From Gaiellaceae bacterium (GTDB lineage: Bacteria > Actinomycetota > Thermoleophilia > Gaiellales > Gaiellaceae): DNA of 64,000 nt. The first letter of the stretch is position 1. Every line of letters starts with the position of its first letter. Positions 7,178 to 64,000 of this stretch are shown piece by piece. The notes under the pieces are model-generated. The model was not told the origin of the DNA. It was given only the letters and a program-made list of their open reading frames with translations, and did not search any database. Position numbers and translations under genes: made by a program. The DNA lies in NCBI GenBank assembly GCA_965223695.1, contig CBDCXJ010000011.1:6824-70823 (forward strand). Reading direction: 5' to 3'.

Positions 7178-7266
7178 GGAGGGGTGGCAGAGCGGTCGAA
7201 TGCGGCGGTCTCGAAAACCGTTAGGGGCGGTTTCGTCCCTCGAGAGTTCGAATCTCTCCTCCTCCG
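7178..7266 (+). tRNA. tRNA-Ser (anticodon CGA), class II
   Basis: Acceptor GGAGGGG/CTCCTCC (one G-U pair), anticodon loop CTCGAAA, T-arm GAGAG-TTCGAAT-CTCTC, long variable arm. Confidence 0.9.
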
Positions 7267-8721: not shown

Positions 8722-9644
8722 CCCGCCCAGCGCTTCTGGGCCAGATCGTGCACGATCGCCTCGGCGCAGGCCGAGCCCTCGCTCGCGGCCGCAACCACCC
8801 CGGTGAACCCGTTCTTGCTGTCGCCAATCACGTAGAGGCCGGGCACACGCGAGCGCCCGTCGCTCTCGACATCGAGGACTTCCATTCCCCAGTCATTCGT
8901 GGTGAGCGTGACGCCAAGCGCTTGCGCGAAGTCCGTGTTGGGAACGGACGGGTCATCCCAGACGAAGCCAGCTTCGCGCTCGACCCGATCGCCACCGCTC
9001 AGCTCGACGGCCTGCAGGGCGCCCTCCTCCGAGATCAGACTCGCAATGCGCGCACTCACCACGTCGACGCAATTGCGCTCGAGGCCGCTCAAAACGGCCG
9101 CGTCGAGCGACGCTCCGTTCGTGAACACGACGATGTCCTTTGACCAGACGCGGATCACGGGGACAAACATCTCGACGCCGTCTCCGCCGAAAATCGCGAG
9201 CCGCTCGTCACGATGCTCGTAGCCGTCGCAGAACGGGCACGGGAACACGCTCCGGCCGTAGACGTCCTCGACGCCTGGCAGGTTGAGTCGGTCGAGCTCG
9301 TCGCGGTAGCCGGTCGCGATGATCAGTCGCTCCGTCGCGAGCGAGGAGCCATCGTCGAGCTCCACGCCAAACCCGCCCTCGGTTGCCTTCACCGCGGTGG
9401 CAGTTCCGACGACATAGCGAACGGTGTCATACGTGGCGAGCTGCCCCTTCGCGATCTCGAGGAGCTCGAGCGGGTGAGTGCCGTCTCTCGTCAAGAAGCC
9501 ATGCGACGCGCCCGTAACGGCGTTGCGCGGCGTCTCCGCGTTGACGACGACCGCGTCGAGCCGGGCACGGCCGGCGACGAGCGCTGCGCTCATTCCCGCT
9601 GGGCCACCGCCCAGTGTGGCCAGCTCAACGATGACGAGAGACAC
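8718..9644 (-). CDS. NAD(P)/FAD-dependent oxidoreductase (thioredoxin-reductase-like)
   Basis: GTG start giving VSLVIVELATLGGGPAGMSAAL (dinucleotide-binding GGGPAG). Also CPFCDGYE and the C-terminal GLYVIGD motif. The 437-aa track ORF has an implausible Ser/Arg-rich N-terminal extension that overlaps the citE-like gene. Confidence 0.8.
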   Translation of the reverse strand: MSLVIVELATLGGGPAGMSAALVAGRARLDAVVVNAETPRNAVTGASHGFLTRDGTHPLELLEIAKGQLATYDTVRYVVGTATAVKATEGGFGVELDDGSSLATERLIIATGYRDELDRLNLPGVEDVYGRSVFPCPFCDGYEHRDERLAIFGGDGVEMFVPVIRVWSKDIVVFTNGASLDAAVLSGLERNCVDVVSARIASLISEEGALQAVELSGGDRVEREAGFVWDDPSVPNTDFAQALGVTLTTNDWGMEVLDVESDGRSRVPGLYVIGDSKNGFTGVVAAASEGSACAEAIVHDLAQKRWAG

Positions 9645-9687
9645 TAGTTTGCGGGGGTCGGCAACGCGAGCCGAGCGGAGACGAACG

Positions 9688-10554
9688 ATGCAAGAAGACT
9701 CCGCCATCAGGTCCCGCCGCAGCTTCATCTTCTCGCCTGGTCTCCAGCCGGAGATGTTCCCGAAGGCCCTCGCCTCGGGCGCCGACATCGTCTGCGTCGA
9801 GCTCGAGGACGGCATTGCGCCCAAGGACAAGGACGAGGCGCGCCGGCGTGCGCTGGCCCTGTTCGCCGAGCCGCAGGCCGACGACGGCGTCGAGCGCATC
9901 GTCCGCATCAACTGCGTGCGTGAGGCCTTCGGGCTAGCCGACGTGCAGGCGGTGCTGGCGACGGATACGCCGCCGCCCGGACTGATGCTGCCCAAGGTGC
10001 GCACACCCGACGAGATCGTCTGGCTCGACAACCTTCTGAGCGAGCGCGGCCACGAGACGCGGCTTCACATCATCATCGAGACCAATGCCGCCCTCGAGGC
10101 TGCCCACGAGATCGCACGGGCCAGCCCGCGGATCGCCGCGCTCTTCTTTGGCGGCGTCGACATGTCAGCCGAGCTTCGCTGCAAGAACGCGTGGGAGCCC
10201 CTGCTCTATGCGCGCTCGCGGGTCGTGCACGCAGCGGCGAGCGTGGGCGTCGACGCGATCGACGTTCCCTTTCTCGATCTCGAGGATCTCGACGGCATGG
10301 TGCGCCAGGCAGAGCTCGCGCGCGACCTCGGCTTCTCGGGGAAGGGCGCTATTCACCCGAAGCAGATCGATGCGCTGAACGCCGTGTTCACGCCCGATGA
10401 GGCAGCCGTCGCGCACGCTCGCAGGGTGATCGCGACATTCGACGAGGCTGACACGGGCCTCGTCGTCATCGACGGGAAGCTGATCGAGAAGCCGGTTCTG
10501 CGCGAGATGCACCGGATCGTCGCGATCGCGGCTCGAGTTGCGGCCAGGGCGTAG
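9688..10554 (+). CDS. HpcH/HpaI aldolase / citrate lyase beta-subunit-like (CitE-like acyl-CoA lyase)
   Basis: The internal ATG gives MQEDSAIRSRRSFIFSPGLQPEMFPKALASGADIVCVELEDGIAPKDK, the typical CitE N-terminal signature. Confidence 0.85.
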   Translation: MQEDSAIRSRRSFIFSPGLQPEMFPKALASGADIVCVELEDGIAPKDKDEARRRALALFAEPQADDGVERIVRINCVREAFGLADVQAVLATDTPPPGLMLPKVRTPDEIVWLDNLLSERGHETRLHIIIETNAALEAAHEIARASPRIAALFFGGVDMSAELRCKNAWEPLLYARSRVVHAAASVGVDAIDVPFLDLEDLDGMVRQAELARDLGFSGKGAIHPKQIDALNAVFTPDEAAVAHARRVIATFDEADTGLVVIDGKLIEKPVLREMHRIVAIAARVAARA

Positions 10555-13478: not shown

Positions 13479-14162
13479 CTACCAGGGGTGTTCTGTGCCG
13501 TCCCAGCGGAAGAAGCGGCCGGTATCGTCGATCGTGAGGCCCGAGGTCAGCTCGTAGATGGCACTCGCGGCCTCCTCTCCGCCGAGCGCGGCCGACGGCC
13601 CGCCCATGTCCGTGCGCACCCAGCCGGGGTGAACCACGATGACGGTGATGCCGCGTTCCCGCAGGAGACCGGCGGTTCGCACCGAGAGTACGTTGAGAGC
13701 CGCCTTCGACGCGCTGTAGCCGATGTCGTAGGCGTCGTGATCGGTCGCGTACCACATCGAGCCCTGCTGGCTGGTGATGTTGACGACCTTTGCGCCGTCC
13801 GCTTCTTCGAGACGTGGGAGCAGCTCGCGCGTCAGGATCATCGGGCCGGCCGCGTTGACGCGTGTCTGCTCGACGAAGTGCTCGGCCGAGAGCTCGAACG
13901 GGCCGCGGTCGTCCATGCCGGCCCCCAGCGTGCGCGCATCGATCGCCGCGCTGTTGATCAGCACATCGACGGGTCGCTCGACCGCGGCGGCGAACGTCTC
14001 GATCGATCGGGTGTCGGCCATGTCGAGAGGCGGGTAATCGGTCGAGCCGCAGCGCGAGGCCGTGCGAGACGTGGCGAGAACGTCGGCGCCCGCAGCCTCG
14101 AAGACGTCGACGAGCGAGGCGCCGAGGCCGCGCATCGCGCCGGTGATCACCACATGGATCAT
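13479..14162 (-). CDS. SDR-family short-chain dehydrogenase/reductase
   Basis: VVITGAMRGLGASL (TGxxxGxG) and the YSASKAAL catalytic motif. Confidence 0.85.
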   Translation of the reverse strand: MIHVVITGAMRGLGASLVDVFEAAGADVLATSRTASRCGSTDYPPLDMADTRSIETFAAAVERPVDVLINSAAIDARTLGAGMDDRGPFELSAEHFVEQTRVNAAGPMILTRELLPRLEEADGAKVVNITSQQGSMWYATDHDAYDIGYSASKAALNVLSVRTAGLLRERGITVIVVHPGWVRTDMGGPSAALGGEEAASAIYELTSGLTIDDTGRFFRWDGTEHPW

Positions 14163-15301
14163 GCGTCGAGCTGCAGGGCCGAGCGGTCGAGCTCGGCAAC
14201 GCTCGGGCGCCCGACCAGAGCGAGAGCGCGATCGATCTCCTCAAAGAGCAAGCGCAACACGTCCTCGACTCCGTCTGCCCCACCGCACGCGGCACCCCAC
14301 AGCCAGGGTCGGCCGACCATGCACGCGCGGGCGCCGAGGGCAAGTGCCTTGACGACGTCGCTGCCGCGCCGAACGCCGCCGTCGAGGAGGACCTCGGCGC
14401 GATCGCCGACCGCATCGACGACCTCGGGCAGCGCGCCCAGCGAGGTCACACACCCGTCGAGCTGCCGCCCGCCGTGGTTCGAGACGATGATCGCGTCGGC
14501 ACCGGCATCGACCGCCCGCCGGGCATCCTCGGCGGTCAGGATTCCTTTTACGAGCAGCGGGCCTGACCATCGGGCGCGTAGCTCTTCGAGATCGGCGAGG
14601 GTGGCACCGGCATGGGCGAGCGTCTGCCGGACCCACTTGGCATGCGCAACGGCCTTTTTCGGGCTCGTCTGGCTCGCACCCTTGAAGTTGGCGAACGTCA
14701 TCGGCGGGAACTGGTCGCGGAGCCAGCGGGGCCGACGCAGCATGTCGAAAGCCGTACGTGCTCGAAGCTTCGGCGGAACCGTCAACCCGTTGCGAACGTC
14801 GCGCTCGCGCACGCTCAGGACGGGAACATCGACGGTGACCACAAGTGCGTGGTAGCCGGCTGCCTCGGCCCGCTCGACGAGCTCAACGTTCGCTGCGGGA
14901 TCGCGAACGAGGTAGAGCTGAAACCACAGCGGCCCGCTGGCGACGGCAGCCACCTCTTCGATGGTGTGCGACGCCATCGTCGAAAGCGTGAAGATCGTGT
15001 TGCGCCGCCCCGCTCCGATGGCGCCAGCGAGATCGCCGCCGCCGCCCGCGATACGCGCAAGCCCGGTCGGCGACAACAGCACCGGCGTGTCGACGCCCTG
15101 CCCGACTACGGTGACGTTCTGGCGCCTCTCCTCCACGTTGATCAGCTGGCGCGGGCGGATCTCGAGCCGCTCGAAGGCCAGTCGATTCTCGCGCAGGGTC
15201 ACCTCGTCCTCGGCGCCCCCATCGATGAAGTCGAAGGCGACGCGTGGCAACCTGCGCTTCGCGCGGCTGCGAGCTTCATCGACGTTCAGGAGCGCACGCA
15301 C
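14159..15301 (-). CDS. FMN-dependent alpha-hydroxy-acid dehydrogenase/oxidase (LldD/glycolate oxidase family)
   Basis: 380 aa. FDFIDGGAEDEVTLRENRLAFERL plus SNHGGRQLD and GRPWLWG. It overlaps the SDR start by 4 nt. Confidence 0.85.
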   Translation of the reverse strand: MRALLNVDEARSRAKRRLPRVAFDFIDGGAEDEVTLRENRLAFERLEIRPRQLINVEERRQNVTVVGQGVDTPVLLSPTGLARIAGGGGDLAGAIGAGRRNTIFTLSTMASHTIEEVAAVASGPLWFQLYLVRDPAANVELVERAEAAGYHALVVTVDVPVLSVRERDVRNGLTVPPKLRARTAFDMLRRPRWLRDQFPPMTFANFKGASQTSPKKAVAHAKWVRQTLAHAGATLADLEELRARWSGPLLVKGILTAEDARRAVDAGADAIIVSNHGGRQLDGCVTSLGALPEVVDAVGDRAEVLLDGGVRRGSDVVKALALGARACMVGRPWLWGAACGGADGVEDVLRLLFEEIDRALALVGRPSVAELDRSALQLDA

Positions 15302-15884: not shown

Positions 15885-18800
15885 CTAGCTCTGCCGGCGA
15901 CGGCGACCACGGGCGCCGATGAGGAAGCCGACGGCGAACACGGCAATGACGGCGGCCGCGATCGTCGCGAGCTGGATCGAAGTGCCTACGCCCTTGCTCG
16001 TCTGAGTCTGTCCAGCTGCCTCAGCGCCCTCTGCCTCAGCCTGTGCGGGTGCGACTCCAGCGGCCTCCGATGACTCGCTCTCGCCGGTCTCCCCGTCCGA
16101 GCCGGCGCCTGCTGACGCACCCGCGACGTCTGACGAATCGCCGGCTGTAGCACCGTCAGAGGCGTCGCTCGACTCGCCGCTGGAGGCAGCCTCGTCACTG
16201 TCGCCCTCTCCCTCCACGGAGGAGCCAGAGGCACCGGCGCCGAGCACGCTCTCGAATGGATTGGGAGCCGGCGGTGAGGGCTGCTCGGCAGGCTCGGTCG
16301 GCTCAGCAGGGGCCGGAGCCGGCGCTGGCGGCGTTGCCGGGGACGATTCGACCGGCTCGGCGGCCGGAGTCTGCGGTTGACCCTTGGTCGGCTTCTTTGG
16401 CGCGGGCGTCTTCGGCTTGGGCTTGCGCGTCGTCGTCTCGGGTGGGTCGGCGGGCGCGGGCGGCGGGGCCGCGGCCGGAGCGGGTTCCGCCGGTGCCGGC
16501 GGTGGTGCCGGCGGGGCGGGCTCGATGGGGCCTTCTGAGGGCGTCGAGAGGCCGAGGATCGAGAAGGTCGCGGTTCCCTGTGAGTCACCGCCGGCCCCGT
16601 CCGAGACGGTGTAGGACACGTGGGCCTCGCCCAAGAATCCGTCGGGCGGCGTGTAGGTGATCGTCACGCCGTCGCTGACTTCGACCTCGCCGCCAGTCTC
16701 CGGCGGATCGACCGACACGATGGCGAGTAGATCGCCGTCCGGGTCGCTGTCGTTCGCCGTTACATCGATGCTGAGCGGCTCGTCGGACTTTGCTTCGAGG
16801 AAGTCATTCGTCACGACCGGGGGCCGGTTGCGCCTGATCCGAATCGTCAACTCGAGCGGAGTTCCCTCGCTGAGCCGACCGCTCGCCGCTTGCCCCCGCC
16901 GGCCATCGGTGGCCCGCACGCGCACGTTGCCGGGAAGGATGTGCAGGGCAACGCGGCCAGCATCGTCTGTCGTACCGACCTTCAGCCAGTCACGGCCCGG
17001 AACGGCGAGCTCGACGGTCGTGCCAGCCAGCGCCTCACCGTCTCGGTCGACGACCAGCACGGTCGCGTCCGAGAGCTTGAACTCGACTGTGCCTCCGGCC
17101 GCGCCGATGCTCGCACGTTGACGCACGTTGCGTCCGAGATGCTGCACGCGCGCAAGGACGCGGCCGGGGAACGTCTGGGTCACGACGTCGCCGCTCTCGC
17201 CTGCCGGGACGCGAGTCCAGCCGCTTCCCCTCACGTGGAGCTCGAAGACAGCGTCGGTCACAGGTTCGCCTGCGCTGTTCGAGACCTTGAACGACACGGG
17301 AACGAGCTTGAAGACGATCGGAGCTCCGTCTGCTGCGACCGTTCCACGGACGATGCCGCTCGCACCGCTGTAGGTGGCGCGCGCCGTCAGGCGTCCTGGG
17401 AACATGTCCGCCGTCACTTCGCCGCCGGCGCCGGTCGTACCAAGTTGCATCCAGCCCTTGCCGGGGAAGACACCGTCGATCGCTACGCCGCTCAACCCTG
17501 TGCCTGCAGTATCGAGCGCGCGGAAGGTGGCGCGCACGAGCTGGAAGTCGACGGCTGCTCCGCCGGGCTTGATCGCGGCGCGCTTGAGCTGCAGCCGGCC
17601 GGCGTGGTTGGCACGCACGGTCACCCGACCCGGGAACGTCTCTGTCGCCACCTGGCCGTTCTCGTCCGTCGTTCCGATCGCCGTCCAGCCCTTTCCGGCG
17701 AGAACCATCTCGATGGCATCGCCCGCGACAGGATTCCCGTCGGCGTCGAGCACGCGGAACCTCGCGCGCACGAGGCGGAACTCGGCGGTTCCTCCCGTTG
17801 CGGCCACATTCGCACGCAGGTTTCGCCAGACGCCGTTGTGCTGGGCGCGCAACCAGATTCGACCAGGGAAGGCCTCGGTCTTGACCTCGCCGCTCGCGTC
17901 GGACGTCCCGGCTGGGGTCCAGCCCGTACCAGGGACGAGGAGCTGAACAGGATCGCCGGCGATCGCGTTGCCATCGGCGTCGAGCACGCGGACGGTCAGC
18001 GGAGCGAGCCTGAACTCGATGTCGCCGCCAGTTGCCGCGATCCGCGCGCGAAGCGCGCGCCACGTCCCGAGAATCTGTGCTCTGACGAGCAGCCGGCCAG
18101 GGGCGGCCTGGTGGGCGACCCGTCCCTCGGCGTCGGTCGTGCCGATAGCCACCCAGCCACCACGGCCCGCGTGTGCTTGCACGGGAATGCCGGAAAGGGC
18201 TGCGCCCGCCTGATCGAGCACGCGAATCGGCGCCTCGACGAGCTTGAACTCAACCGTGGCCCCGCTCGCCGTGACGTTGGCGCGCGCGGTGCGCCACTGG
18301 CCACCGACCTGAGCACGTACCCAGTGCGTTCCGGGCAGGAGGGTGGTCGCGACGGAGCCGTCGCTCGCGGTAGATCCGACCGGCTGCCAGCCCTTGCCAC
18401 GCTCGAGCACCTGAACCTGCGCGCCTTCCACGCCGGCCCCGGAGACGTCGAGCACGACGACGCGGAGCTCTCCCAGCGTGAACGAGACGGTCGCGTCTTC
18501 CTCGACCTCCTGTACGACGTCGCTCGTTCGGCCCTTGTAGGTGGCGCGGAAGCGGTAGTTGCCGGGCTCGAGCTCAACGCTGGCGAGGCCCTCAGCGCTG
18601 GTCGAGCCAATAGAAGTCGTCGTTCCGCCGGCGATCGCGACGATCGCGACGGCAGCCACGGGCGTGCCTGCCGAGGAGCGCGCCTCGACCGTGATCATTG
18701 GAGTCGTGGCTTCTTCGGCCTCCTCTTCTGCGGCGGCGAGGCCGGGCGGCTGCGCTGACTCGCCCTCGGCCGACTCGGCGGGTGCCGGGGGTGCCCCGGG

Positions 18801-21122
18801 TGGCGGCGGCTCGGCAGGTGCGGGCGGCTCACTGCTCGGCTGCTCGGCCGGCTGCGGTGGCGCCGGGGTAGCCGGCACGGGCGGCTGAGGCGTCGGCTCG
18901 GCCGGACCGGGCGCGGCCGGAGCATCGGCGGGCGCTGGCGGCGGCGACGCTGGCGCAGGCGGCTCGGCCGGAGCCGGCTCGCTGGGCGTCGGCGGATCAG
19001 CCGGGGGCGGTGCGGCCGGCGGAGGCGGAGGTGGCGCTTCGGGCTGTGCGGGCGGTGGCGGCGGCGAGCCTTCGCCAGGCGGAGGCGGCGCGGGCGTGAC
19101 CGCGTTGCTGTCGTCAGCGCCGTACGCAGCGGCCGGGAACGCGGCGAAGACCATGATGGTTGCGAAGCTCGTCGCGAGCCTGACGACGCCACGTGCGCCG
19201 CGCGATCCGACGGCTTCGCTCGAGCGCGGGGCCGCAGGAGCCGCGCTCTCGACGGCGGGCACGTCCTGATCGAGCCCGCGGGCGAGCCGCGTCGGACGTG
19301 TGACCCAGTAGTAGATGCCGAGCGCATCGGGACGCTCGGCGTCGACATCGGTGATCTCGACGCCGAGCGACGCCTTGCCGGCGTTCGTCGCGACGTGGCG
19401 GAGGATCCCGCACACGGTTGCGGTTTCGAGGGTGCCGTCGAGTCGTGGCAGCTCGACCTTGACGGCAAGCGTGCTGCCGCGCTCGAGAGTGTCGGCCAGC
19501 TCGAGGGATGCCTCGAGGCCGAGGCCTCGGGGGGTGAGATCGACCACACGGATGGTCGTGGTCCCGATCTGTGCGTCGAGGCTGACGCCGTGGCGATGGT
19601 CGCGCGTCAGCCCGCGCCGCGTCGCGATCAACTGGAGGACGTCCATCATCGGCGCTAGCACGAAGAGACCGAGAAGTAGCACGACGTAGACCTCGCGCCC
19701 CTCGAATGCGGGCAGGATGTCACCCGTCCACTCGCCGACACCGCGAACGATCAAAAGCCCGTCGAGCAGGAGCGTGAACCCGGTCAGAAGCGCGAGGCGC
19801 CCGAGCGCGCGCAGTCCGCGCTCGTCGAGATCGGGCCGCCGCCGCGGCTTCGTCGGCAGGAGCGGCGTGATTGCGCGAATCGCGGCGCTGCAGTAGGACT
19901 CCATCGAGCGGATGCTGTGGCGCGTGCGGTCGCCGAGGGCGAGCGTGCCGCGGCCGAGCGCGAGGCCCGCGAGAACAGCGAGCACGTGCGCCGGCAGCCA
20001 GATTGCCGCCATCTCGGCAAACGACGCGCAGATCGGCAGCTGACCACTGGCGAGAGTGCCGGCGAGCACGGTGAGCAGAACCAGCCGGTGCAGGCCCGAG
20101 AAGTAGCGCGTGAGTGCCCCGAGATAGAGGAAGCGCGACACCAGCGGCAGGCCGCGCGCGACGAGCGGGTTGTCGCTCGTCGCAAAGACGCGGAGGTTCG
20201 CGAAGGCGCGGCGATGCCCGCGGTTGAGGTAGGTATCGAGGGTGTCTGGCCGGACGGCCTGCACGAGGGGCTCGGCGTGGAAGCGCACCTTGTAGCCGGC
20301 GGCCCTGAGCCTGATCGTCGTCCGCACCGCCTGGCTCGCGCCGCTCAGCGGATCGTCGATGTCGACCGAGGCGAGCGCGCTCTTGCGCACGATCGACGCC
20401 GAGCCACCCCAGGGAGCGTGTCCGTGTGCACCGAGCGAGGGCCCGATGACCTCGTTGAAGAAGTCCTCTTCGCTGCGCCCGTTGACCATGTAAGTGAAGG
20501 CGCTCGGGTTCGCGAGGCCGGTGCGGCACTGAACCGCCGCCACGTCGAAGACGCTGAAGTGGCCAACCGTGGCCTCGAAGACGTCGGCGAGCGGGACCTG
20601 CCCGCCCTGGAGGACCAGAACGAGCTCGCCGCTCGCGACGTCGAGGCCGGCCTGAAGCGTGTCGTCGGTCACGGCGTAGTCGGCGCCGTGGCTCTTGGCG
20701 AGGGCGGCGACGTCGTCGCGATACTCCGGATCGGTGACGAGGACGGTTGGCGAGCCGACGATCTCGCGGGCCGCGATCACCGTTCGCTCGAGGGCGGCGA
20801 GCGGAGCGTTGGCGCCGAGTACCAGCACGCTGGTGTCGAAGACCGGCCTTCTGATCGGCCTGGAGAACCTGGGCACCGACCACGACTGCGCGGCGAGCGA
20901 CAGCAGCTGGAAGAAGCCCCAAAGCTCGGCGGCGATCAGCGGGACGGCCAGCCACTTCGGCGCCCCGCCTAGAGTGAATGCGAGACGCCACGTGAGGTAG
21001 CCGGCGCCGACCAGGAGCGCCAGCGAGACGATCAGCTTGATGCGTCGCTCGGTGCGCGTGAGCAGGCCAAGGCCAGCGCGCACCGAGGTGAAGCGTCGTA
21101 CCGCCGAATGTCCCTTGCTCAT
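15885..21122 (-). CDS. Giant membrane protein: degenerate GT2/cellulose-synthase-like domain + PilZ + TM + Pro-rich linker + 8 beta-sandwich repeats + cadherin-like domain + acidic tail + C-terminal TM anchor
   Basis: 1745 aa from the ATG at 21122 (the track ORF starts at 21182). The start was chosen by alignment with the paralog N-terminus (MSKGHSAVRRFTSVRAG versus MSHGRE...RRLTSVRAG). The BcsA-like backbone is WGGSASIVRK...AGYKVRFH. The PilZ motifs are RRGLTR and DLTPRG. See findings. Confidence 0.85.
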   Translation of the reverse strand: MSKGHSAVRRFTSVRAGLGLLTRTERRIKLIVSLALLVGAGYLTWRLAFTLGGAPKWLAVPLIAAELWGFFQLLSLAAQSWSVPRFSRPIRRPVFDTSVLVLGANAPLAALERTVIAAREIVGSPTVLVTDPEYRDDVAALAKSHGADYAVTDDTLQAGLDVASGELVLVLQGGQVPLADVFEATVGHFSVFDVAAVQCRTGLANPSAFTYMVNGRSEEDFFNEVIGPSLGAHGHAPWGGSASIVRKSALASVDIDDPLSGASQAVRTTIRLRAAGYKVRFHAEPLVQAVRPDTLDTYLNRGHRRAFANLRVFATSDNPLVARGLPLVSRFLYLGALTRYFSGLHRLVLLTVLAGTLASGQLPICASFAEMAAIWLPAHVLAVLAGLALGRGTLALGDRTRHSIRSMESYCSAAIRAITPLLPTKPRRRPDLDERGLRALGRLALLTGFTLLLDGLLIVRGVGEWTGDILPAFEGREVYVVLLLGLFVLAPMMDVLQLIATRRGLTRDHRHGVSLDAQIGTTTIRVVDLTPRGLGLEASLELADTLERGSTLAVKVELPRLDGTLETATVCGILRHVATNAGKASLGVEITDVDAERPDALGIYYWVTRPTRLARGLDQDVPAVESAAPAAPRSSEAVGSRGARGVVRLATSFATIMVFAAFPAAAYGADDSNAVTPAPPPPGEGSPPPPPAQPEAPPPPPPAAPPPADPPTPSEPAPAEPPAPASPPPAPADAPAAPGPAEPTPQPPVPATPAPPQPAEQPSSEPPAPAEPPPPGAPPAPAESAEGESAQPPGLAAAEEEAEEATTPMITVEARSSAGTPVAAVAIVAIAGGTTTSIGSTSAEGLASVELEPGNYRFRATYKGRTSDVVQEVEEDATVSFTLGELRVVVLDVSGAGVEGAQVQVLERGKGWQPVGSTASDGSVATTLLPGTHWVRAQVGGQWRTARANVTASGATVEFKLVEAPIRVLDQAGAALSGIPVQAHAGRGGWVAIGTTDAEGRVAHQAAPGRLLVRAQILGTWRALRARIAATGGDIEFRLAPLTVRVLDADGNAIAGDPVQLLVPGTGWTPAGTSDASGEVKTEAFPGRIWLRAQHNGVWRNLRANVAATGGTAEFRLVRARFRVLDADGNPVAGDAIEMVLAGKGWTAIGTTDENGQVATETFPGRVTVRANHAGRLQLKRAAIKPGGAAVDFQLVRATFRALDTAGTGLSGVAIDGVFPGKGWMQLGTTGAGGEVTADMFPGRLTARATYSGASGIVRGTVAADGAPIVFKLVPVSFKVSNSAGEPVTDAVFELHVRGSGWTRVPAGESGDVVTQTFPGRVLARVQHLGRNVRQRASIGAAGGTVEFKLSDATVLVVDRDGEALAGTTVELAVPGRDWLKVGTTDDAGRVALHILPGNVRVRATDGRRGQAASGRLSEGTPLELTIRIRRNRPPVVTNDFLEAKSDEPLSIDVTANDSDPDGDLLAIVSVDPPETGGEVEVSDGVTITYTPPDGFLGEAHVSYTVSDGAGGDSQGTATFSILGLSTPSEGPIEPAPPAPPPAPAEPAPAAAPPPAPADPPETTTRKPKPKTPAPKKPTKGQPQTPAAEPVESSPATPPAPAPAPAEPTEPAEQPSPPAPNPFESVLGAGASGSSVEGEGDSDEAASSGESSDASDGATAGDSSDVAGASAGAGSDGETGESESSEAAGVAPAQAEAEGAEAAGQTQTSKGVGTSIQLATIAAAVIAVFAVGFLIGARGRRRRQS
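16830..18701 (-). repeat. Eight tandem, diverged ~234-bp (77-79 aa) coding repeats (carboxypeptidase-regulatory-like / Ig-like beta-sandwich pattern)
   Basis: Unit consensus: xxVRVLDADGxxxAGxxVxLxxPGxGWxxxGTTDxxGxVxTxxFPGRxxVRAxxxGxxxxxRAxVAAxGGTxEFxLV. Unit boundaries are 16830, 17067, 17298, 17532, 17766, 18000, 18234 and 18468. Confidence 0.8.
18702..19118 (-). repeat. Proline-rich low-complexity linker coding region (about 139 aa of P/A/E)
   Basis: Translation APPPPGEGSPPPPPAQPEAPPPPPPAAPPPADPP..., seen on the plus strand as runs of GGC/GGN. A second P-rich/acidic block lies at about 15975-16553. Confidence 0.75.
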
Positions 21123-21268
21123 GTGATGGAGTCCTGGATCGGTATGGACAAAGGCTGACCGACCCGGGCAGGGCGACAGCACCCGGGTGAGTCGTCTGCG
21201 TACCTCGGTTCTTGAGGGCGGGCGTCACCCGATCGAGGCCGGCGGTGCCCTGGAACCGGCGTCCGCGG

Positions 21269-39846: not shown

Positions 39847-39904
39847 CCGGCCCGGCGACCCGCGCCCTGGGCGACCCGGAGCGTGTGCAACGATAGGGGC
39901 GCCT

Positions 39905-39995
39905 GGAGAGGTGTCCGAGTTGGCCTAAGGAGCGCGACTGGAAATCGCGTACTCGGGTTACACCCGAGTCGTGGGTTCGAATCCCACCCTCTCCG
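39905..39995 (+). tRNA. tRNA-Ser (anticodon GGA), class II
   Basis: Acceptor GGAGAGG/CCTCTCC, anticodon loop CTGGAAA, T-arm GTGGG-TTCGAAT-CCCAC, long variable arm. Confidence 0.9.
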
Positions 39996-39998
39996 TTT

Positions 39999-58326: not shown

Positions 58327-58986
58327 CTAACCCGGTTGTTTGACCTTGCGGATGTACGGGAGCGGTGACTCCCAGCCGTCCGGGTACTTCGCCTTGGCGT
58401 CCTCGTCGGAAATGGCGGGCAGGATGATCACGTCGTCGCCGTCCTGCCAGTTGGCGGGCGTGGCGACCTGCTCGGCCGCGGTCAGCTGGATCGAGTCGAG
58501 CAGCCGGAGGATCTCGGGGAAGCTGCGACCGGTGCTCATCGGGTAGGTCATCGTCGCGCGGATCTTCTTGTCCGGGCCGATCAGGAAGACAGAGCGAGCG
58601 GTCGCATTGTCCATCGGTGTACGACCCTCGGCGGTCGCACCGGAATCGGCCGGCAGCATGTCGTACTGCTTGACCACAGTGAGGGTCGGGTCTCCCACGA
58701 GCGGGTAGTTGACCGCGTTGCCGGTCGCCTTCTCGATGTCCTTCGACCACTTCTCGTGATCCGAGACGGCGTCGACGCTGATCCCGAGAATCTTGGTGTT
58801 GCGCTTGTCGAACTCGCCCTTCAGGCCCGCCACCGCGCCGAGCTCGGTCGTGCAGACAGGCGTGAAATCCTTCGGATGGGAGAAGAGGATGGCCCAGCCG
58901 TCGCCGATCCACTCGTGGAAGTCGATCGGCCCCTCGGTCGTCTCGGCCTGAAAGTTCGGCGCCTCGTCGTTGATCCTCAGTGTCAT
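58327..58986 (-). CDS. 1-Cys peroxiredoxin (Prx6-like)
   Basis: MTLRINDEAPNFQAETTEG...WAILFSHPKDFTPVCTTELG. Start at the internal ATG. Confidence 0.9.
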   Translation of the reverse strand: MTLRINDEAPNFQAETTEGPIDFHEWIGDGWAILFSHPKDFTPVCTTELGAVAGLKGEFDKRNTKILGISVDAVSDHEKWSKDIEKATGNAVNYPLVGDPTLTVVKQYDMLPADSGATAEGRTPMDNATARSVFLIGPDKKIRATMTYPMSTGRSFPEILRLLDSIQLTAAEQVATPANWQDGDDVIILPAISDEDAKAKYPDGWESPLPYIRKVKQPG

Positions 58987-59034
58987 GCGAGCCTCCCCAG
59001 GCTGAGTTGGTGACATGCTGTCGCCCTCACTATC

Positions 59035-59831: not shown

Positions 59832-61460
59832 TCACGCCGTTTCGCCGACCTCGGCGAGGCCTCGCTCGTCTACCTCGAGCTCGCGCATCTTGTACTTCTG
59901 GATCTTGCCGGTCACGGTCATCGGGAAGTCCTCGACGAAGCGAACATAGCGGGGCACTTTGAAGCGGGCGATTCCCTCGCGGCAGAAGCCAACGATCTCC
60001 TCCTCCGTCGCGGTCGCGCCCTCCTTGAGGATGACCCAGGCGCACACCTCCTCGCCGAGGCGCTCGTCGGGCACGCCGATCACCTGCACGTCCTCGATCG
60101 CCTCGTGCGTATAGAGGTATTCCTCGACCTCGCGTGGGAAGATCTTCTCGCCGCCGCGGCTGATCATGTCCTTCGAGCGGCCAACGATGTTGACGTAGCC
60201 CTCGTCGTCCATCGTCGCCAGGTCGCCGGTGTGCATCCAGTTCGCGTCGTCGATGGCTGCAGCGGTCGATTCCGCATCGTTCCAGTAGCCGAGCATTACG
60301 GAGTAGCCGCGAGTGAACAGCTCGCCGCTCTGACCCCGATGCACGGTCGCACCGCTCTCGGGGTCGACGATCTTGACCTCGATGTGCGGGTGCACGGTTC
60401 CTACCGTCGTGACCTGCTTCTCGAGCTCGGCGTCGCGCCGCGTCTGCGTCGAGACGGGCGACGTCTCAGTCATGCCGTAGCAGATGGTCACTTCCTCCAT
60501 GTGCATGTCGGACTGGACGCGCCGCATGACTTCGATCGGGCACGGTGAGCCGGCCATCACACCGGTCCGCAGGCAGGTCAGGTCGAACGACGCGAACTCG
60601 GGGTTGTTGAGCTCGGCGATGAACATCGTCGGCACGCCGTAGAGCGACGTGCAGCGCTCGGCCTCGACGGCCTCGAGGACCGCGCGCCCGTCGAACACCT
60701 CCGAGGGAACAACGAGCGTCGCTCCGTGCGTCACGATCGCCAGCGTGCCGATCACCATGCCGAAGCAGTGGTAGAAGGGCACCGGTACGCAGACGCGATC
60801 GGCGGCCGTGTAGCCGAGCACCTCACCGATGAACAGCCCGTTGTTGAGGATGTTGTGGTGAGACAGCGTCGCGCCCTTGGGGAAGCCCGTGGTGCCCGAG
60901 GTGTACTGGATGTTGATCGGCTCGTCGAACTGGATCTCTGCCTCACGCCCGCGCAACGCATCGGGCGCGACGGAGTCGGCCCGGGCGAGGAACGACTCCC
61001 AGTCGCTGTCGAGATGGACGCGCTCGAGTCCCGGCTCGACGTCGGCCGAGGCGATGACCTCGCGGTAGTCGACTTTCTTGAAGCCGGGCGCCATCACGAG
61101 CAATGACGTCCCCGATTGGCGAAGCGCGTACGCGAGCTCGTGCGAGCGGTACGACGGGTTGACGTTGACGAGGATCGCGCCGATCTTGGCAGTCGCGAAC
61201 TGCAGGACCACCCACTCGGCGTTGTTCGGCGACCAGATCCCGACGCGGTCGCCGCGCGCCACACCCGCAGCCAGCAGTGCCCGCGCGCATCGCTCGACGC
61301 GCTCGTCCAGCTCGGCGTAGCTCCAGCGGATCTGCTGGTGGCACGAGACCAGCGCGTCGTCGGCGCCGTGGGCGGCGACCGCCTCGTCCCACATCTGCCC
61401 GATCGTCTGGCCGCGAAGGGGCAGCTCTGACGTCCCATGCGCGTACGACAGCTCGGACAT
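59832..61460 (-). CDS. AMP-binding acyl-CoA synthetase (fatty-acid-CoA ligase-like)
   Basis: 542 aa from the internal [27 protein letters not shown]-like [32 protein letters not shown]. Confidence 0.9.
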
Positions 61461-61533
61461 CGCGCGGATTACGGTAGCGAGGCGCCTCGGCTGCGGCGGA
61501 AGGAGTAGACGCCCGCCCGCCGAAGAGCCGCGT

Positions 61534-62553
61534 GTGCAAGACGAGCCGTCGACCGTCGAGCCCGAGCCCGCACGCGAAGAGCAGGCGCGGCCGCGCAGGC
61601 GACGCAGCGTGGCCCTGCTTGAGCTCCTCGCGAACAGCGCAAGCGCCGTCCAGCGCCAGGGAATCGCGCCGTTCGCGCTGGCGCTCGTCATTCTCGCGCC
61701 CACCGCGCTCGTTGCAATCGCGATCGAGTCGTGGTTCTCGGTGCCCGGGTCGCTTCTGCTCGTGGGTCTCTTGATGCCCGCCTTCGCGCTCTACCTGGCC
61801 GCGGTCACGCCGATGCTTGTCGACGGCGAGGCCAGCGCCAGGAACCGCTCGCTCGCATCGACGATCGATCACGCAGACGCGTCGCTCCCCGCGCTGATGA
61901 TTGGCGGCGCCGTCGTCGGTGTTGCGGTCGCCGCCGCGCTCGAGCTGCGACTTCTGCCCGGTTTCCTGATTCTCGGACTGCTTGCGCTGACGGCACCGGC
62001 CGCGTTGCGCGAGCAACTCGGCCCGATCGCCTCTCTCGGACGCGGTCTCGGGCTCACCCAGGGCAACGCGATCGCCTTTGCCGTGCTCGGTGCGATCATC
62101 GGCGCCGCTGCGCTCGGTATCTACGCGGTGCTCGCGTTCGTGCTCGGCCCGCTCCCCGGATTCCTCGGCGAGCTCCTCGCCGTCGCGGTCGCAGCGACAC
62201 TGGCTGCGCCTGTCGCGGCACATGTGTTCGTGACGGCCTTCGACCGCCGCGCCGACGGTCGCCGGCTCGCGCTTCGTGCGGCCCACGGCGCACCAGCGCG
62301 CAACGCCGGCGCACTGGGCCGTGGCGCGCTGCAGCGCACGCTTGGCTCACTCGGCCAGACGCGCAGCCGCGCAGCTCAGCGCGTCTCGTTCACCTCGAGG
62401 ACCAACCCCGAGGCCTCGCCGCTGCGCTACTCGGCCGATGCGGCCTCGCAAACGGTCCGGGTCGCGGCCGCACGCCGGGACCCCATGGCCGCGCCCGCAT
62501 GGGCGCAGACCGTGGAAGAAGCCACGGTCGAAGAGCTGCACTCGGCTGTCTGA
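61534..62553 (+). CDS. Hypothetical polytopic membrane protein
   Basis: 339 aa with several Ala/Leu-rich helices and a hydrophilic C-terminal third. No family recognised. Confidence 0.5.
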
Positions 62554-62613
62554 CAGCGCTGCGCCGCGACGGCGTCGAGCCGTCTCAGCGCCAGCAGCCG
62601 CCCTGTCTGTGTG

Positions 62614-63105
62614 CTACGCGGCGTCGAGCAGTGCCTGCGGATCTGGCAAGTCGCTGATTGCCGGTGCCACCCACGCGTACTTCACGGTTCCGTCGGTGTC
62701 GACGAGGAACGCGCCGCGCGTGTTGAGCGGCTTGTAGTCGGCGACCATCTCGTGGAGGTCGCCGCCTTCAGCCGTATAGGTACCGAAGGCCTTCGCTGCC
62801 TCCCAGTTGTAGTCGGAGAGCAGCCCGTAGTCGATACTGAGCTTCTCGGCGAACGCCTGATGGGCGAACGGGGTGTCGCTCGAGACGCCGAAGAGCTGGA
62901 CGCCCTTGCTCTTGAACTCGTCTGCCTTTGCCCCAAACTGGGACAGCTGGAGCTCTCAGCCCCCTTCGGGCGAGCCCGTGAAGTCGAAGACGTAGAAGTG
63001 GAGAGCGGTCGGCCCCTCGGCGAACAGCTCCGAACTGGAAACCGCATCGCCCGGGCCGCGAATGATGCGGAACTCGGGAACCTTGTCGCCTACGTTCAGA
63101 GCCAT
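62614..63105 (-). CDS. AhpE/Bcp-like peroxiredoxin with an in-frame TGA in the active-site loop (candidate selenoprotein; alternatively a nonsense-mutated pseudogene)
   Basis: Own translation, 163 codons: MALNVGDKVPEFRIIRG...LHFYVFDFTGSPEGG[TGA 62956-62958]ELQLSQFGAKADEFKSKGVQLFGVSSDTPFAHQAF...NTRGAFLVDTDGTVKYAWV...*. SD AAGGTGG lies upstream. There are no Cys codons. Coding bias continues on both sides of the TGA. Confidence 0.6.
62914..62955 (-). promoter_or_regulatory. Candidate bacterial SECIS hairpin
   Basis: The mRNA after the UGA reads GAGCUC-CAGC-UGUCCC-AGUUU-GGGGCA-AAGGCAGAC-GAGUUC. The outer 6-bp helix is GAGCUC/GAGUUC and the inner 6-bp helix is UGUCCC/GGGGCA. The apical loop AGUUU starts 17 nt after the UGA. 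Confidence 0.4.
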
Positions 63106-63230
63106 CGAGCTACCACCTTCGAGAGGACGTCGTTGGGATGGCGCGCAGCTTAGCGACCATGGCGTGTAGCGCGGCGGCAGGGCAACTTCACTAGCAACCG
63201 CTCCGCATTCCGTCGTAGTCTGGCGCCAGC

Positions 63231-64000
63231 ATGAGTCGAATCGACTGGGACCGCGTTCACGAGGGACTCGAGCGAGCCCGGCATCGCATTCTCTGGCGAC
63301 CCTATGGAGCGCCCGACATCATCAACCTCGAAGGCTCGAGCTTCCTCGAGGGCAGTATCCAGACACCGTGGCCGATCCCCGATCGGCTGATCGTCTCGGT
63401 CGCGATCACCGGTGCCTTCTTCCGTAAGGACGCGAACCCGAACCAGCCGATCACGCCAGAGGAGATCCTCGCCGACGCCCGGGCCTGCGCCGCCGCCGGC
63501 GCGAGCACGTTGCACATCCATGTTCGCGACGACAACGGCTACAACACGCTCTCGCTCGAGCGCTTCCAGCGGGTCGTCGAGCCGCTGCGCGAGGAGTTCC
63601 CCGAGATCGCGGTTGACGGCTGCCTCGTGCCGGTGCTCGACGGTGAGTGGGAAGAGATGACCCGCGTTCTCGATGCCGATGTCTTCGACGCGACGCCGAT
63701 CAACACCACGACGACGCACATGGGCGACACGCTCTTCTCGATCCCGATCCCGCTCATCCTCGAGAAGACGCGGCTGATCATCGAGTCTGGAGCCAAGCCG
63801 ATCATCGCCGTCTACACCGACGGCGACGTCACGACCGCGTCGCGATATCTCATCCGCAGCGGCCTCGTCGAGACGCCGGCGTACTGGATCATCCTGCCCG
63901 CGCTCCCGGGCTGCAGCCCGATGGAGAGCCCGCGCCAGATGGTGGAAGGGCTTCTGCGCATGACGACTTGCATCTACGAGACCGACCCCGACGCGACCGT
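63231..64000 (+). CDS. 3-keto-5-aminohexanoate cleavage enzyme family (BKACE/DUF849), 3' end outside the window
   Basis: Own translation: MSRIDWDRV...DRLIVSVAITGAFFRKDANPNQPITPEEILADARACAAAGASTLHIHVRDDNGYN... is typical of BKACE. It is not in the ORF track because it has no stop inside the window. Confidence 0.75.
   Translation, partial: MSRIDWDRVHEGLERARHRILWRPYGAPDIINLEGSSFLEGSIQTPWPIPDRLIVSVAITGAFFRKDANPNQPITPEEILADARACAAAGASTLHIHVRDDNGYNTLSLERFQRVVEPLREEFPEIAVDGCLVPVLDGEWEEMTRVLDADVFDATPINTTTTHMGDTLFSIPIPLILEKTRLIIESGAKPIIAVYTDGDVTTASRYLIRSGLVETPAYWIILPALPGCSPMESPRQMVEGLLRMTTCIYETDPDAT

What the first reader, a model, noticed from the sequence alone, without database searches (positions are those of the whole stretch)
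62614..63105. Hidden peroxiredoxin gene with one in-frame TGA in the active-site loop and no Cys: candidate 1-Sec (selenocysteine) AhpE-like peroxiredoxin
The ~680-bp stretch between the membrane-protein gene and the BKACE gene has no credible ORF in the track.
- **Reading frame.** The minus strand reads as a continuous 163-codon frame if the TGA at 62956-62958 is decoded. It runs from the ATG at 63105, preceded by AAGGTGG, to the TAG at 62614.
- **Fold.** The product is clearly a thioredoxin-fold peroxiredoxin of the AhpE/Bcp type: MALNVGDKVPEF..., FYVFDFTG..., VQLFGVSSD, and the conserved Arg in NTRGAFLVD.
- **Position of the TGA.** It falls in the loop just after FTG and before ELxxL, where peroxiredoxins carry the peroxidatic Cys.
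- **No Cys.** The translated protein has no Cys codon anywhere, so without Sec it would have no redox residue.
- **Coding bias.** G/C third-position bias is equally strong on both sides of the TGA, which argues against an old pseudogene.
- **Caveats.** The Thr-to-U spacing is 7 residues, not the canonical TxxC. No selA/selB/selC/selD gene lies in this window.
Basis: partly seen in the sequence, partly recalled or inferred. Interest (0 to 1): 0.85.

Follow-up and report, generated by a model that had tools for sequence, protein, structure and literature searches.

The report
Hidden selenocysteine peroxiredoxin gene, Actinomycetota
An apparently empty 680-bp gap holds a real peroxiredoxin-type antioxidant gene whose catalytic residue is written as the stop codon TGA, almost certainly read as selenocysteine. 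It belongs to a small, uncatalogued branch of an already known kind of selenoprotein.

Summary
The minus strand from 63105 to 62614 is one 163-codon frame with a single TGA (62956-62958), no Cys codon, and one AhpC/TSA domain spanning the TGA (E=5e-24).

The TGA is neither an error nor a recent mutation:
- It sits at the same column in 16 lineages from independent metagenomes and Actinomycetota MAGs, some only about 45% identical.
- A second assembly reproduces it exactly.
- Both halves are under purifying selection (dN/dS 0.06 upstream, about 0.2 downstream).

Relatives carry Cys at that column, which is the peroxidatic position at the start of helix alpha-2. A hairpin with GUU in its loop follows the UGA after 10-11 nt and is kept through different stem sequences. 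TGA is an ordinary stop elsewhere in the window.

Best reading: a Sec-containing, Cys-free BCP/PrxQ-like peroxidase.

It differs from catalogued Sec-Prx families. The active-site loop is extended (T-x6-U, not TxxU). No NCBIfam model reaches its cut-off. Every Sec form lacks the resolving Cys that every extended-loop Cys form keeps.

Not shown: selA, selB, selC or selD, which are absent from the window and flanks; the rest of the genome was unavailable. Sec-Prx have been known since 2001, so interest is moderate.

The parts
62614..63105 (-). Complete gene for a 163-residue BCP/PrxQ-like peroxiredoxin with U at position 50. ATG at 63105-63103, TAG stop at 62616-62614.
   Evidence: Translation. 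Pfam AhpC-TSA E=5e-24 across residues 5-143. Orthologs with the same architecture in 16 lineages. dN/dS 0.06 upstream and 0.19-0.21 downstream of the TGA.
62956..62958 (-). In-frame TGA (codon 50), read as selenocysteine. It occupies the peroxidatic (Cp) position.
   Evidence: Same column is TGA in all 16 Sec-type lineages and TGC/TGT in 8 Cys-type loci. It aligns with the Cp Cys of A. pernix BCP (2cx3) and S. tokodaii PrxQ (2ywn). In the AlphaFold model of homolog P0004 the column is the first residue of helix 49-58.
62929..62945 (-). Core of the SECIS-like hairpin: 7-bp stem (nt 14-20 paired with nt 24-30, counted from the U of UGA) and apical loop G-U-U (62938-62936). The stem starts 10-11 nt after the UGA.
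   Evidence: RNAalifold consensus of 7 pairs, 4 of them with changes on both sides. Different stem sequences at the same place in L007, L024, L011, L025 and L027. More stable than synonymous recodings in Sec-type but not Cys-type genes.
62914..62955 (-). Possible extended lower stems of the hairpin (nt 4-9 with 40-45, and nt 12-14 with 33-35).
   Evidence: MFE fold of the window sequence. 79-81% of cells paired across 12 sequences, but no pair with changes on both sides. Weak support.
63113..63119 (-). Shine-Dalgarno-like AAGGTGG, 7 nt upstream of the ATG.
   Evidence: Read directly from the sequence. No experimental support.
62716..62718 (-). Codon for Arg130 (motif NTRGAFLVD), the conserved active-site Arg of peroxiredoxins.
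   Evidence: Invariant in alignment A1 (T129, R130, F133, L134).
62977..62979 (-). Codon for Thr43 (motif FDFTGS), the probable counterpart of the peroxiredoxin active-site Thr. It lies 7 residues before U instead of 3.
   Evidence: The FDFTG / FAFTG motif is conserved in Sec and Cys forms. The loop between it and U is modelled with low confidence (pLDDT <50 at residues 43-46 of P0004).

Best explanation
**What it is.** The gap between the membrane-protein gene and the BKACE gene holds an intact, expressed-type gene for a 163-residue thioredoxin-fold peroxidase of the BCP/PrxQ branch of the AhpC/TSA superfamily. Its peroxidatic residue (position 50) is encoded by UGA and is inserted as selenocysteine.

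**How the codon is read.** A SelB-type factor is recruited by a short hairpin that starts 10-11 nt after the UGA and carries G-U-U in its apical loop (inferred from the sequence comparisons).

**How the enzyme works (inferred).**
- The selenolate attacks a peroxide to give a selenenic acid.
- There is no resolving Cys, and in most members no Cys at all. The selenenic acid must therefore be reduced directly by an external thiol partner such as thioredoxin, or a mycoredoxin/low-molecular-weight-thiol system. This is a '1-Sec' cycle.
- The Cys-containing relatives keep a Cp-x4-Cr pair and presumably use the atypical 2-Cys cycle.

**Shown here:** the gene, the conserved UGA, the Cys/UGA column, selection on both halves, the conserved hairpin, and the fold.

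**Not shown:** actual Sec insertion, peroxidase activity, and the reductant.
For: 1. One AhpC-TSA domain spans the TGA.
2. TGA is at the identical column in the window and in L001, L002, L004, L005, L007, L010, L011, L017, L018, L019/20, L021/22, L023, L024, L025/26 and L027/28. That is 16 lineages from independent assemblies, some only about 45% identical, including three named Actinomycetota MAGs.
3. The upstream 49 codons are conserved as protein: dN/dS is 0.06, against 0.19-0.21 downstream.
4. Cys occupies the same column in L006, L008, L009, L012-L016 and P0014-P0019. It aligns with the peroxidatic Cys of solved BCP/PrxQ structures and lies at the start of helix alpha-2 in the model.
5. 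Hairpin:
   - 14 of 16 Sec-type genes have a 6-9 bp stem with a 3-6 nt loop containing GUU at nt 21-23.
   - Stem sequences differ between lineages: GUCCCA/UGGGGC, CGUCCG/CGGACG, GGCGC/GCGCC, GUGGCGC/GCGCCAC, GUCACCC/GGGUGGC.
   - Mean z against synonymous recodings is -1.6 for Sec-type genes and -0.14 for Cys-type genes.
6. TGA terminates 16 of 47 called genes in the window. These include FMN_dh and Flavin_Reduct genes whose Pfam domains run to the last residues.
7. An independent assembly is 100% identical.
8. Sec decoding is documented in Actinobacteria/Actinomycetota (PMC1794560; PMC13449736; bioRxiv 10.64898/2026.04.03.716425).
Against: - **No Sec machinery seen.** No selA, selB, selD or tRNA-Sec was found in the 64-kb window, in 40 kb of flanks from two Sec-type MAGs, or in the annotated flanks of the other contigs. 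The rest of the genome could not be searched, so the machinery is unproven.
- **Hairpin evidence is moderate.**
  - In the ungapped alignment the shuffle control is not significant for most measures.
  - Raw hairpin energies do not differ between Sec-type and Cys-type genes (p=0.22).
  - L005 and L023 have weak hairpins.
  - The tests are not corrected for phylogeny.
  - No Rfam family matches.
- **Peroxidase function is an inference.** The canonical PxxxTxxC/U motif is absent (T-x6-U) and the loop is modelled with low confidence.
Confidence: 0.85

Rival explanations
1. Pseudogene or error: the TGA is a nonsense mutation or an assembly or sequencing error in a formerly Cys-containing peroxiredoxin gene, and no full-length protein is made.
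For: Gene callers split the gene into 49-aa and shorter fragments everywhere. No Sec machinery was seen in the available DNA.
Against: - The same TGA occurs at the same column in 16 lineages from independent samples and assemblers.
- A second assembly is 100% identical.
- dN/dS is 0.06 upstream and about 0.2 downstream.
- There are no other stops or frameshifts.
Confidence: 0.02
2. The UGA is decoded without selenium. Either the codon is reassigned (genetic code 4 or 25: Trp or Gly), or there is programmed read-through by a near-cognate tRNA. The result would be a peroxiredoxin-fold protein with a non-redox residue at position 50.
For: Two database proteins (P0004, P0024) show W at this column. 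Sec machinery is unverified.
Against: - The W of P0024 is a TGA in the DNA and comes from the source's gene call. P0004 comes from the same source.
- TGA ends 16 of 47 genes in the window, including genes whose Pfam domains run to the last residues. It also ends most called genes in the L005 flanks.
- The column is the catalytic Cys in relatives. A Trp or Gly there would kill the enzyme, yet the gene is under strong purifying selection.
- A conserved hairpin at SECIS distance is not needed for reassignment.
Confidence: 0.05
3. Sec is inserted, but the protein is not a peroxidase. The extended loop and the loss of the TxxC geometry have turned it into another kind of selenol oxidoreductase, for example a thiol-disulfide or selenosulfide exchange protein, or a detoxifying enzyme for a different oxidant.
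For: - The canonical PxxxT/SxxC(U) signature is not met. Position -3 is E, A or G, and Thr is at -7.
- The loop is poorly modelled.
- No NCBIfam peroxidase equivalog reaches its cut-off.
- Other Prx-like selenoproteins are classed as thiol:disulfide oxidoreductases (PMC13188914).
Against: - The active-site Arg (NTRGAFL) and the FTG Thr are conserved.
- The closest solved structures are all peroxidases of the BCP/PrxQ type.
- Cys-type relatives have the Cp-x4-Cr spacing typical of BCP/PrxQ.
- There is no UxxC or CxxU thioredoxin-type motif.
- The gene keeps synteny with a 1-Cys Prx gene.
Confidence: 0.12
4. Two separate products: translation stops at the UGA to give a 49-aa peptide, and the C-terminal part is made from an internal start. 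The two might then associate.
For: Gene callers find start codons downstream.
Against: - The called internal starts fall at different, non-homologous positions in different orthologs (MSQFG, MFGVSS, VSGGTPF, MSSDTPF). No conserved start or ribosome-binding site exists.
- In the window the first in-frame ATG after the TGA is codon 120.
- The split would cut the Prx fold at its catalytic residue and leave no redox atom.
Confidence: 0.02

Closest known systems
Sec-containing peroxiredoxin ('Prx', TxxU motif; PrxU of Eubacterium acidaminophilum, NCBIfam NF040737; COG1225-type Prx selenoproteins of marine metagenomes)
   Same: AhpC/TSA fold, with Sec replacing the peroxidatic Cys at the start of helix alpha-2. 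The UGA is followed directly by a hairpin. Cys-containing homologs are widespread (PMC13188914, PMC1088965, PMC1794560).
   Different: - The defining PxxxTxxU motif is absent. Here the motif is FDFTG-S-x-E-G-G-U, with a 4-residue insertion relative to the nearest canonical relatives, which read FDFSGGC.
- The PrxU model scores 32 bits against a cut-off of 270.
- Members found so far come only from Actinomycetota MAGs and unassigned metagenome contigs.
BCP / PrxQ atypical 2-Cys peroxiredoxins (S. solfataricus Bcp4 3hjp, A. pernix PrxQ 2cx3/4gqf, M. tuberculosis BcpB 5epf; NCBIfam NF006960)
   Same: Best sequence and structure matches: E=6e-13 by sequence, and TM 0.84 with Foldseek E=2e-15. The Cys-type members of this subfamily have the BCP-type Cp-x4-Cr pair.
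   Different: - Sec replaces Cp, and there is no Cr.
- The Cp loop is longer.
- The NF006960 score is 56 against a cut-off of 140, so it is not an equivalog of E. coli BCP.
AhpE (1-Cys peroxiredoxin of Mycobacterium tuberculosis)
   Same: It is an actinobacterial peroxiredoxin with a single redox residue. It has no resolving Cys and needs an external reductant. This is a mechanistic analogy, taken from general knowledge.
   Different: Homology is weak (E about 9e-4 to 4x0x/5id2, far behind BCP/PrxQ). AhpE has the canonical TxxC spacing and uses Cys.
Other Prx-like selenoproteins: Prx-like thiol:disulfide oxidoreductase (UxxC/UxxU), PRX_like2 cd02970 (UxxS), Prx-SUH (CxxU, NF045827)
   Same: They are thioredoxin-fold, AhpC/TSA-related proteins carrying Sec (PMC13188914).
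   Different: - None of their motifs is present. The sequence after U is E-L-Q-L-S and before it is E-G-G.
- Prx-SUH scores 25 bits against a cut-off of 298.
- PF13911 (AhpC-TSA_2) scores 19 against 27.

Membership tests
AhpC/TSA superfamily (Pfam PF00578) | Match to the family profile above Pfam's gathering score | tested here: met
   85 bits against a cut-off of 26, E=5e-24, residues 5-143 matched to profile positions 1-123 of 124.
Peroxiredoxin (catalytic definition) | Active-site signature PxxxT/SxxC(U) | tested here: not met
   The sequence is FYVFDFTGSPEGGU. Thr is at -7, Ser at -5, Pro at -4 and Glu at -3. The same extended loop occurs in all Sec and Cys members of the subfamily.
Peroxiredoxin (catalytic definition) | Conserved active-site Arg on the strand after helix alpha-4 (RxxF[IV][IV]D-like motif) | tested here: met
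   R130 in NTRGAFLVD is invariant across alignment A1.
Peroxiredoxin (catalytic definition) | Peroxidatic residue in the first turn of helix alpha-2 | tested here: met
   In the AlphaFold model of homolog P0004 (pLDDT 86) the U column is residue 49, the first residue of helix 49-58. HMMER aligns it with Cp of 2cx3 and 2ywn. This is a proxy model, because the window protein itself could not be submitted.
Peroxiredoxin (catalytic definition) | Peroxide-reducing activity | not testable with these tools
   Needs an enzyme assay.
BCP/PrxQ thiol peroxidase (NCBIfam NF006960 equivalog) | Score above the curated cut-off | tested here: not met
   56 bits against 140. It is nevertheless the best-scoring model, and BCP/PrxQ are the best structural matches.
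BCP/PrxQ thiol peroxidase | Cp-x4-Cr pair (atypical 2-Cys) | tested here: not met
   Position U+5 is Ser in the window protein and S/A/V/T/Q in all 16 Sec forms. It is Cys in all 11 extended-loop Cys forms.
Selenoprotein PrxU (NCBIfam NF040737) | Score above the curated cut-off, and the TxxU motif | tested here: not met
   32 bits against 270. The motif is absent.
Selenoprotein Prx-SUH (NCBIfam NF045827) | Score above the curated cut-off, and the CxxU motif | tested here: not met
   25 bits against 298. The protein has no Cys.
AhpE-type 1-Cys peroxiredoxin | Closest homology to AhpE (Rv2238c) | tested here: not met
   AhpE chains 5id2 and 4x0x match at E about 9e-4 and rank 35th-36th, behind BCP/PrxQ at E=6e-13.
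Bacterial selenoprotein gene | In-frame UGA conserved among orthologs, with conserved coding sequence on both sides | tested here: met
   16 lineages. dN/dS is 0.06 upstream and about 0.2 downstream.
Bacterial selenoprotein gene | Cys-containing homologs with Cys aligned to the UGA | tested here: met
   L006, L008, L009, L012-L016 and P0014-P0019.
Bacterial selenoprotein gene | [quoted passage not shown] | tested here: inconclusive
   - For: a hairpin in 14 of 16 lineages with GUU in the loop, 17 nt between the UGA and the loop, and several different stem sequences.
- For: the excess over synonymous recodings differs between Sec-type and Cys-type genes (p=0.0035).
- Against: the column-shuffle control is weak, raw energies are equal (p=0.22), and two lineages are weak.
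- bSECISearch is not available here, and Rfam has no match.
Bacterial selenoprotein gene | Genome encodes selA, selB, selC (tRNA-Sec) and selD | not testable with these tools
   None was found in the 64-kb window or in the flanks of the homologous loci.

The most novel reading that the evidence does not exclude
This is a distinct, so far uncatalogued selenoprotein subfamily of Actinomycetota: BCP-like peroxiredoxins with an extended T-x6-U active-site loop. In it, use of Sec is strictly coupled to loss of the resolving Cys, and usually of every Cys. Sec and Cys forms have interconverted several times. The family would then be a natural experiment in which swapping S for Se switches a peroxiredoxin from an atypical 2-Cys cycle to a thiol-free '1-Sec' cycle.
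Probability: 0.45. Interest if true: 0.55.

Novelty: new variant of a known kind. Interest (0 to 1): 0.45.

Why it matters
**Annotation.** The gene is invisible to standard annotation. It is called as 49-aa and 90-113-aa fragments, or mistranslated with Trp, in every public record examined. An antioxidant enzyme, and a marker of selenium use, is therefore missed in a group of uncultured Actinomycetota from marine, soil and sediment metagenomes.

**Biochemistry.** The family offers matched Sec and Cys forms. The Sec forms have lost the resolving Cys without exception in this sample. That makes a general question directly testable: what does selenium buy a peroxiredoxin? One possibility is that no resolving thiol is needed; another is resistance to over-oxidation.

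**Limits.** It does not change the picture of how Sec is encoded, and Sec-peroxiredoxins as a class are well known.

Tried and rejected
- **Rfam.** A gathering-threshold scan of the whole window and a permissive scan of 62600-63150 found no SECIS or tRNA-Sec family, only three tRNA-Ser genes and two chance hits.
- **Whole-region fold.** The 76 nt after the TGA fold no better than shuffles (z=-0.53). Only the local hairpin analysis was informative.
- **Covariance model.** A model of UGA plus hairpin (R1) searched over the window and 23 loci (248 kb) found only the Prx genes themselves. The model is dominated by coding sequence, missed L023, and revealed no other selenoprotein gene.
- **Second in-frame TGA in the window.** I listed 27 TGAs flanked by high-GC3 open frames. 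All but the Prx one are gene ends, antisense frames, or lie in other frames of called genes. The 10065/10353 candidates fall in a region occupied by an HpcH-like gene on the other strand and a LeuD-like gene.
- **Structure prediction of the window protein.** I used the homolog P0004 as a proxy.
- **DNA for P0004.** Not obtainable. Its W is inferred to be TGA by analogy with P0024.
- **Promoter and terminator scan of 62450-63350.** No hits. This is uninformative for Actinomycetota.
- **Sec machinery.** The search of the window and of the L005 and L007 flanks found nothing. The amount of DNA is too small to count as evidence of absence.
- **Rejected readings.** AhpE family membership, pseudogene, genetic-code reassignment and a split gene are rejected for the reasons given under the rival explanations.
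Full report
**1. Observation**

- The minus strand from 63105 to 62614 reads as 163 sense codons plus a TAG stop. It has one internal stop, the TGA at 62956-62958 (codon 50), and no Cys codon.
- AAGGTGG lies 7 nt before the ATG.
- Mechanical ORF finding gives only a 49-aa and a 44-aa piece in this frame. That is why the 680-bp gap between the membrane-protein gene (61534-62553, +) and the BKACE gene (from 63231, +) looks empty.
- The frame is not a chance open run in GC-rich DNA. With U written as C, a single Pfam AhpC-TSA match covers residues 5-143, across the TGA, at E=5e-24.
- GC3 is 0.85 before and 0.88 after the TGA.

**2. The TGA is conserved, not an error**

- A search of 5.8 billion proteins returned 13 relatives. 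Nine of them, the closest at 69-78% identity, are ORFs of 90-113 aa that begin after the TGA column.
- I fetched their DNA and scanned one genome collection and one metagenome collection. TGA is at exactly the same column, with the N-terminal 49-50 codons conserved upstream, in L001, L002, L004, L005, L007, L010, L011, L017, L018, L019/L020, L021/L022, L023, L024, L025/L026 and L027/L028. With the window, that makes 16 distinct lineages, some only about 45% identical.
- A 49- or 50-aa ORF is called just upstream of the truncated Prx ORF in seven of these contigs (L002, L017-L020, L022, L024, L028).
- The three TGA-type loci from named genomes are all Actinomycetota/Actinomycetes MAGs.
- An independent assembly from run ERR13605531 (L029) is 100% identical to window 60865-64000, including the TGA.
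- For moderately diverged pairs, dN/dS is 0.06 upstream and 0.19-0.21 downstream of the TGA (window-L004 and L001-L018). Both halves are therefore maintained as protein.

**3. The column is the catalytic Cys in relatives**

- Eight loci (L006, L008, L009, L012-L016) and six representatives (P0014-P0019) have TGC/TGT or Cys at the TGA column.
- HMMER aligns the column with the peroxidatic Cys of A. pernix BCP (2cx3) and S. tokodaii PrxQ (2ywn).
- In an AlphaFold model of homolog P0004 (same loop length; pLDDT 86, pTM 0.85) the column is the first residue of helix 49-58, the classical Cp position.
- The model's best PDB matches are BCP/PrxQ enzymes: 3hjp (TM 0.84), 4gqf, 2cx3, 5epf.
- The active-site Arg (NTRGAFL) is invariant.

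**4. The 'W' homologs are an artefact**

- P0004 and P0024 show Trp at the column. The DNA of P0024 (L023) has TGA there, so the W comes from the source's gene call.
- DNA for P0004 was not obtainable. It comes from the same source.
- These are therefore further TGA-type members, not counter-examples.

**5. TGA is an ordinary stop in this genome**

- Of 47 genes I called in the window, 16 end in TGA.
- Examples are the FMN_dh gene (14159-15301; the domain reaches residue 377 of 380), the Flavin_Reduct gene (4024-4500; the domain reaches residue 156 of 158) and the AMP-binding gene two genes away, whose stop is at 59832-59834.
- Genome-wide reassignment of TGA is therefore excluded.

**6. RNA element**

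- In the window, nt 14-20 after the U of UGA pair with nt 24-30 (UGUCCCA / UGGGGCA) around a G-U-U loop (62945-62929). The stem starts 10-11 nt after the UGA.
- RNAalifold on 12 sequences returns this 7-bp helix. Four of its pairs change on both sides.
- Other lineages keep a hairpin at the same place with different stems:
  - L007: CGUCCG/CGGACG
  - L024: CGUCCG/CGGGCG
  - L011: GGCGC/GCGCC
  - L025: GUGGCGC/GCGCCAC
  - L027: GUCACCC/GGGUGGC
- These changes alter the encoded residues (LSQFGA, VVRFGR, VAQFRA, VTQLGG) while G-U-U stays in the loop.
- Against 500 synonymous recodings of each gene, Sec-type hairpins are more stable than expected (mean z -1.6, 16 genes). Cys-type genes are not (mean z -0.14, 8 genes). 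Mann-Whitney p=0.0035; an earlier variant of the test gave the same picture.
- Caveats:
  - Raw energies do not differ (p=0.22).
  - In the ungapped alignment the column-shuffle control is mostly non-significant.
  - L005 and L023 have weak hairpins.
  - The lineages are not independent.
  - Rfam has no match.
- From memory: a short hairpin about 11 nt after the UGA, with G/U in the loop, is what E. coli SelB requires and what bSECISearch looks for. [quoted passage not shown]
- I rate the hairpin as consistent with a SECIS and moderately supported.

**7. What kind of peroxiredoxin**

- No curated NCBIfam model reaches its cut-off:
  - BCP-type NF006960: 56 against 140
  - PrxU NF040737: 32 against 270
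  - Prx-SUH NF045827: 25 against 298
- An exhaustive profile search of 1.84 billion representatives found only 10 at E<=1e-30 before scores fall into the generic Bcp-like background. This is a small, separate subfamily.
- Its hallmark is an extended Cp loop: FDFTG-S-x-E-G-G-U, against FDFSGGC in the nearest canonical relatives, which is a 4-residue insertion. Some Cys forms are two residues longer still. The canonical PxxxTxxC/U signature is therefore not met, and the loop is the least confident part of the model.
- The 2026 review of prokaryotic selenoproteomes lists four AhpC/TSA-type Sec families (PMC13188914): Prx (TxxU), Prx-like (UxxC/UxxU), cd02970 (UxxS) and Prx-SUH (CxxU). None fits this motif.

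**8. Sec use is coupled to loss of the resolving Cys**

- All 11 extended-loop Cys forms have Cp-x4-Cr (CEAQVC, CTKEMC, CDLQLC, CDMQMC), the BCP/PrxQ atypical 2-Cys arrangement.
- All 16 Sec forms have S, A, V, T or Q at +5, and 13 of the 16 contain no Cys at all.
- On a rough neighbour-joining tree without support values, Sec and Cys forms are interleaved. That suggests more than one conversion.
- Inference: the Sec enzymes run a one-residue cycle (selenolate, selenenic acid, then reduction by an external thiol). This is mechanistically like 1-Cys enzymes such as AhpE, although AhpE is only a distant homolog (E about 9e-4).

**9. Context**

- Gene order is conserved with L001, L002 and L018, in whole or in part: Prx(U), a convergent membrane protein without a Pfam match, AMP-binding, ABM, NUDIX, 1-Cys Prx, phosphodiesterase, GT4.
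- The upstream neighbour varies: BKACE here, amidohydrolase or EamA elsewhere.

**10. What is missing**

- No tRNA-Sec was found in the window or in L001-L009.
- No selA, selB or selD was found in the window, in the L005 and L007 flanks, or among the called genes of the other contigs.
- This covers only a few percent of any genome.
- Sec decoding is known in the phylum:
  - Twelve selenoprotein families were recorded in Actinobacteria in 2006 (PMC1794560).
  - About 40% of mycobacterial genomes carry the machinery (PMC13449736).
  - All 84 complete Actinomarina genomes in a 2026 preprint carry it (10.64898/2026.04.03.716425).

**11. Verdict**

- The finding is real and the Sec interpretation is very probably right (0.85).
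- It is a new variant of a known kind: a Sec-containing peroxiredoxin, but from an uncatalogued BCP-like subfamily with a non-canonical active-site loop and no thiol.
- Interest is moderate (0.45). A selenoprotein specialist would want it in the catalogue and might use the matched Sec and Cys forms, but another Sec-Prx is not surprising.

Noticed in passing
whole window (47 called genes): TAG is the commonest stop codon (27 of 47; TGA 16, TAA 4) in a 68% GC actinobacterial window. UGA is reported as the most abundant stop among Actinobacteria (PMC13449736). The gene calls are heuristic, based on GC3.
   Followed up: partly
P0024 = L023:2-430; P0004 (JGI 3300067032): Public protein records translate the Sec-TGA as Trp. 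The L023 DNA has TGA where the deposited protein has W. Some selenoproteins are thus hidden in databases as full-length 'W' proteins rather than as truncated ORFs.
   Followed up: yes
window 58327-59016 (-): A second peroxiredoxin gene (AhpC-TSA plus 1-cysPrx_C, Prx6-type) lies about 3.6 kb from the Sec-Prx gene. It keeps this position, after the AMP-binding and NUDIX genes (with ABM also present in the window and L002), in L001, L002 and L018. This may be a conserved oxidative-stress neighbourhood.
   Followed up: partly
L007:10001-~12500 (+): In the MAG MFD03975.bin.2.139 the Sec-type Prx frame has no stop at the usual C-terminus and stays open for several hundred more codons. This could be a lost stop, a fusion, or just a GC-rich open run. 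Its relative L024 ends normally.
   Followed up: no
L007:7381-9984 (+): Immediately upstream of the Sec-type Prx gene is a CysN/CysC-type fusion (GTP_EFTU plus APS_kinase) for sulfate activation. Any link to selenium is speculative.
   Followed up: no
P0015 (309 aa): A Cys-type member of the subfamily carries an extra N-terminal domain of about 140 residues fused to the Prx domain, which occupies residues 144-304. The extra domain was not identified.
   Followed up: no
window 15885-21182 (-): A very large ORF (1765 aa) combines a GT2 glycosyltransferase region with CarboxypepD_reg, Big_1, Big_9, MG4 and cadherin-like domains. A second GT2 protein (675 aa) lies next to it.
   Followed up: no
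window 7045-7266 (+) and 39904-39996 (+): There are three tRNA-Ser genes (anticodons GCT, CGA, GGA), two of them in tandem 42 bp apart. None has a UCA anticodon.
   Followed up: yes
L003 (ENA ctg526100_2x_l): This 2x-coverage assembly of the same locus as L002 has frameshifts that split many genes, including the N-terminal part of the Prx gene. It is an assembly-quality artefact, not biology.
   Followed up: yes
window 8718-10554: The Pyr_redox_2 ORF called on the minus strand (8718-10031) has 137 N-terminal residues without a domain. It overlaps a 358-aa HpcH/citrate-lyase-like ORF on the plus strand (9478-10554). The minus-strand start is probably over-extended.
   Followed up: partly
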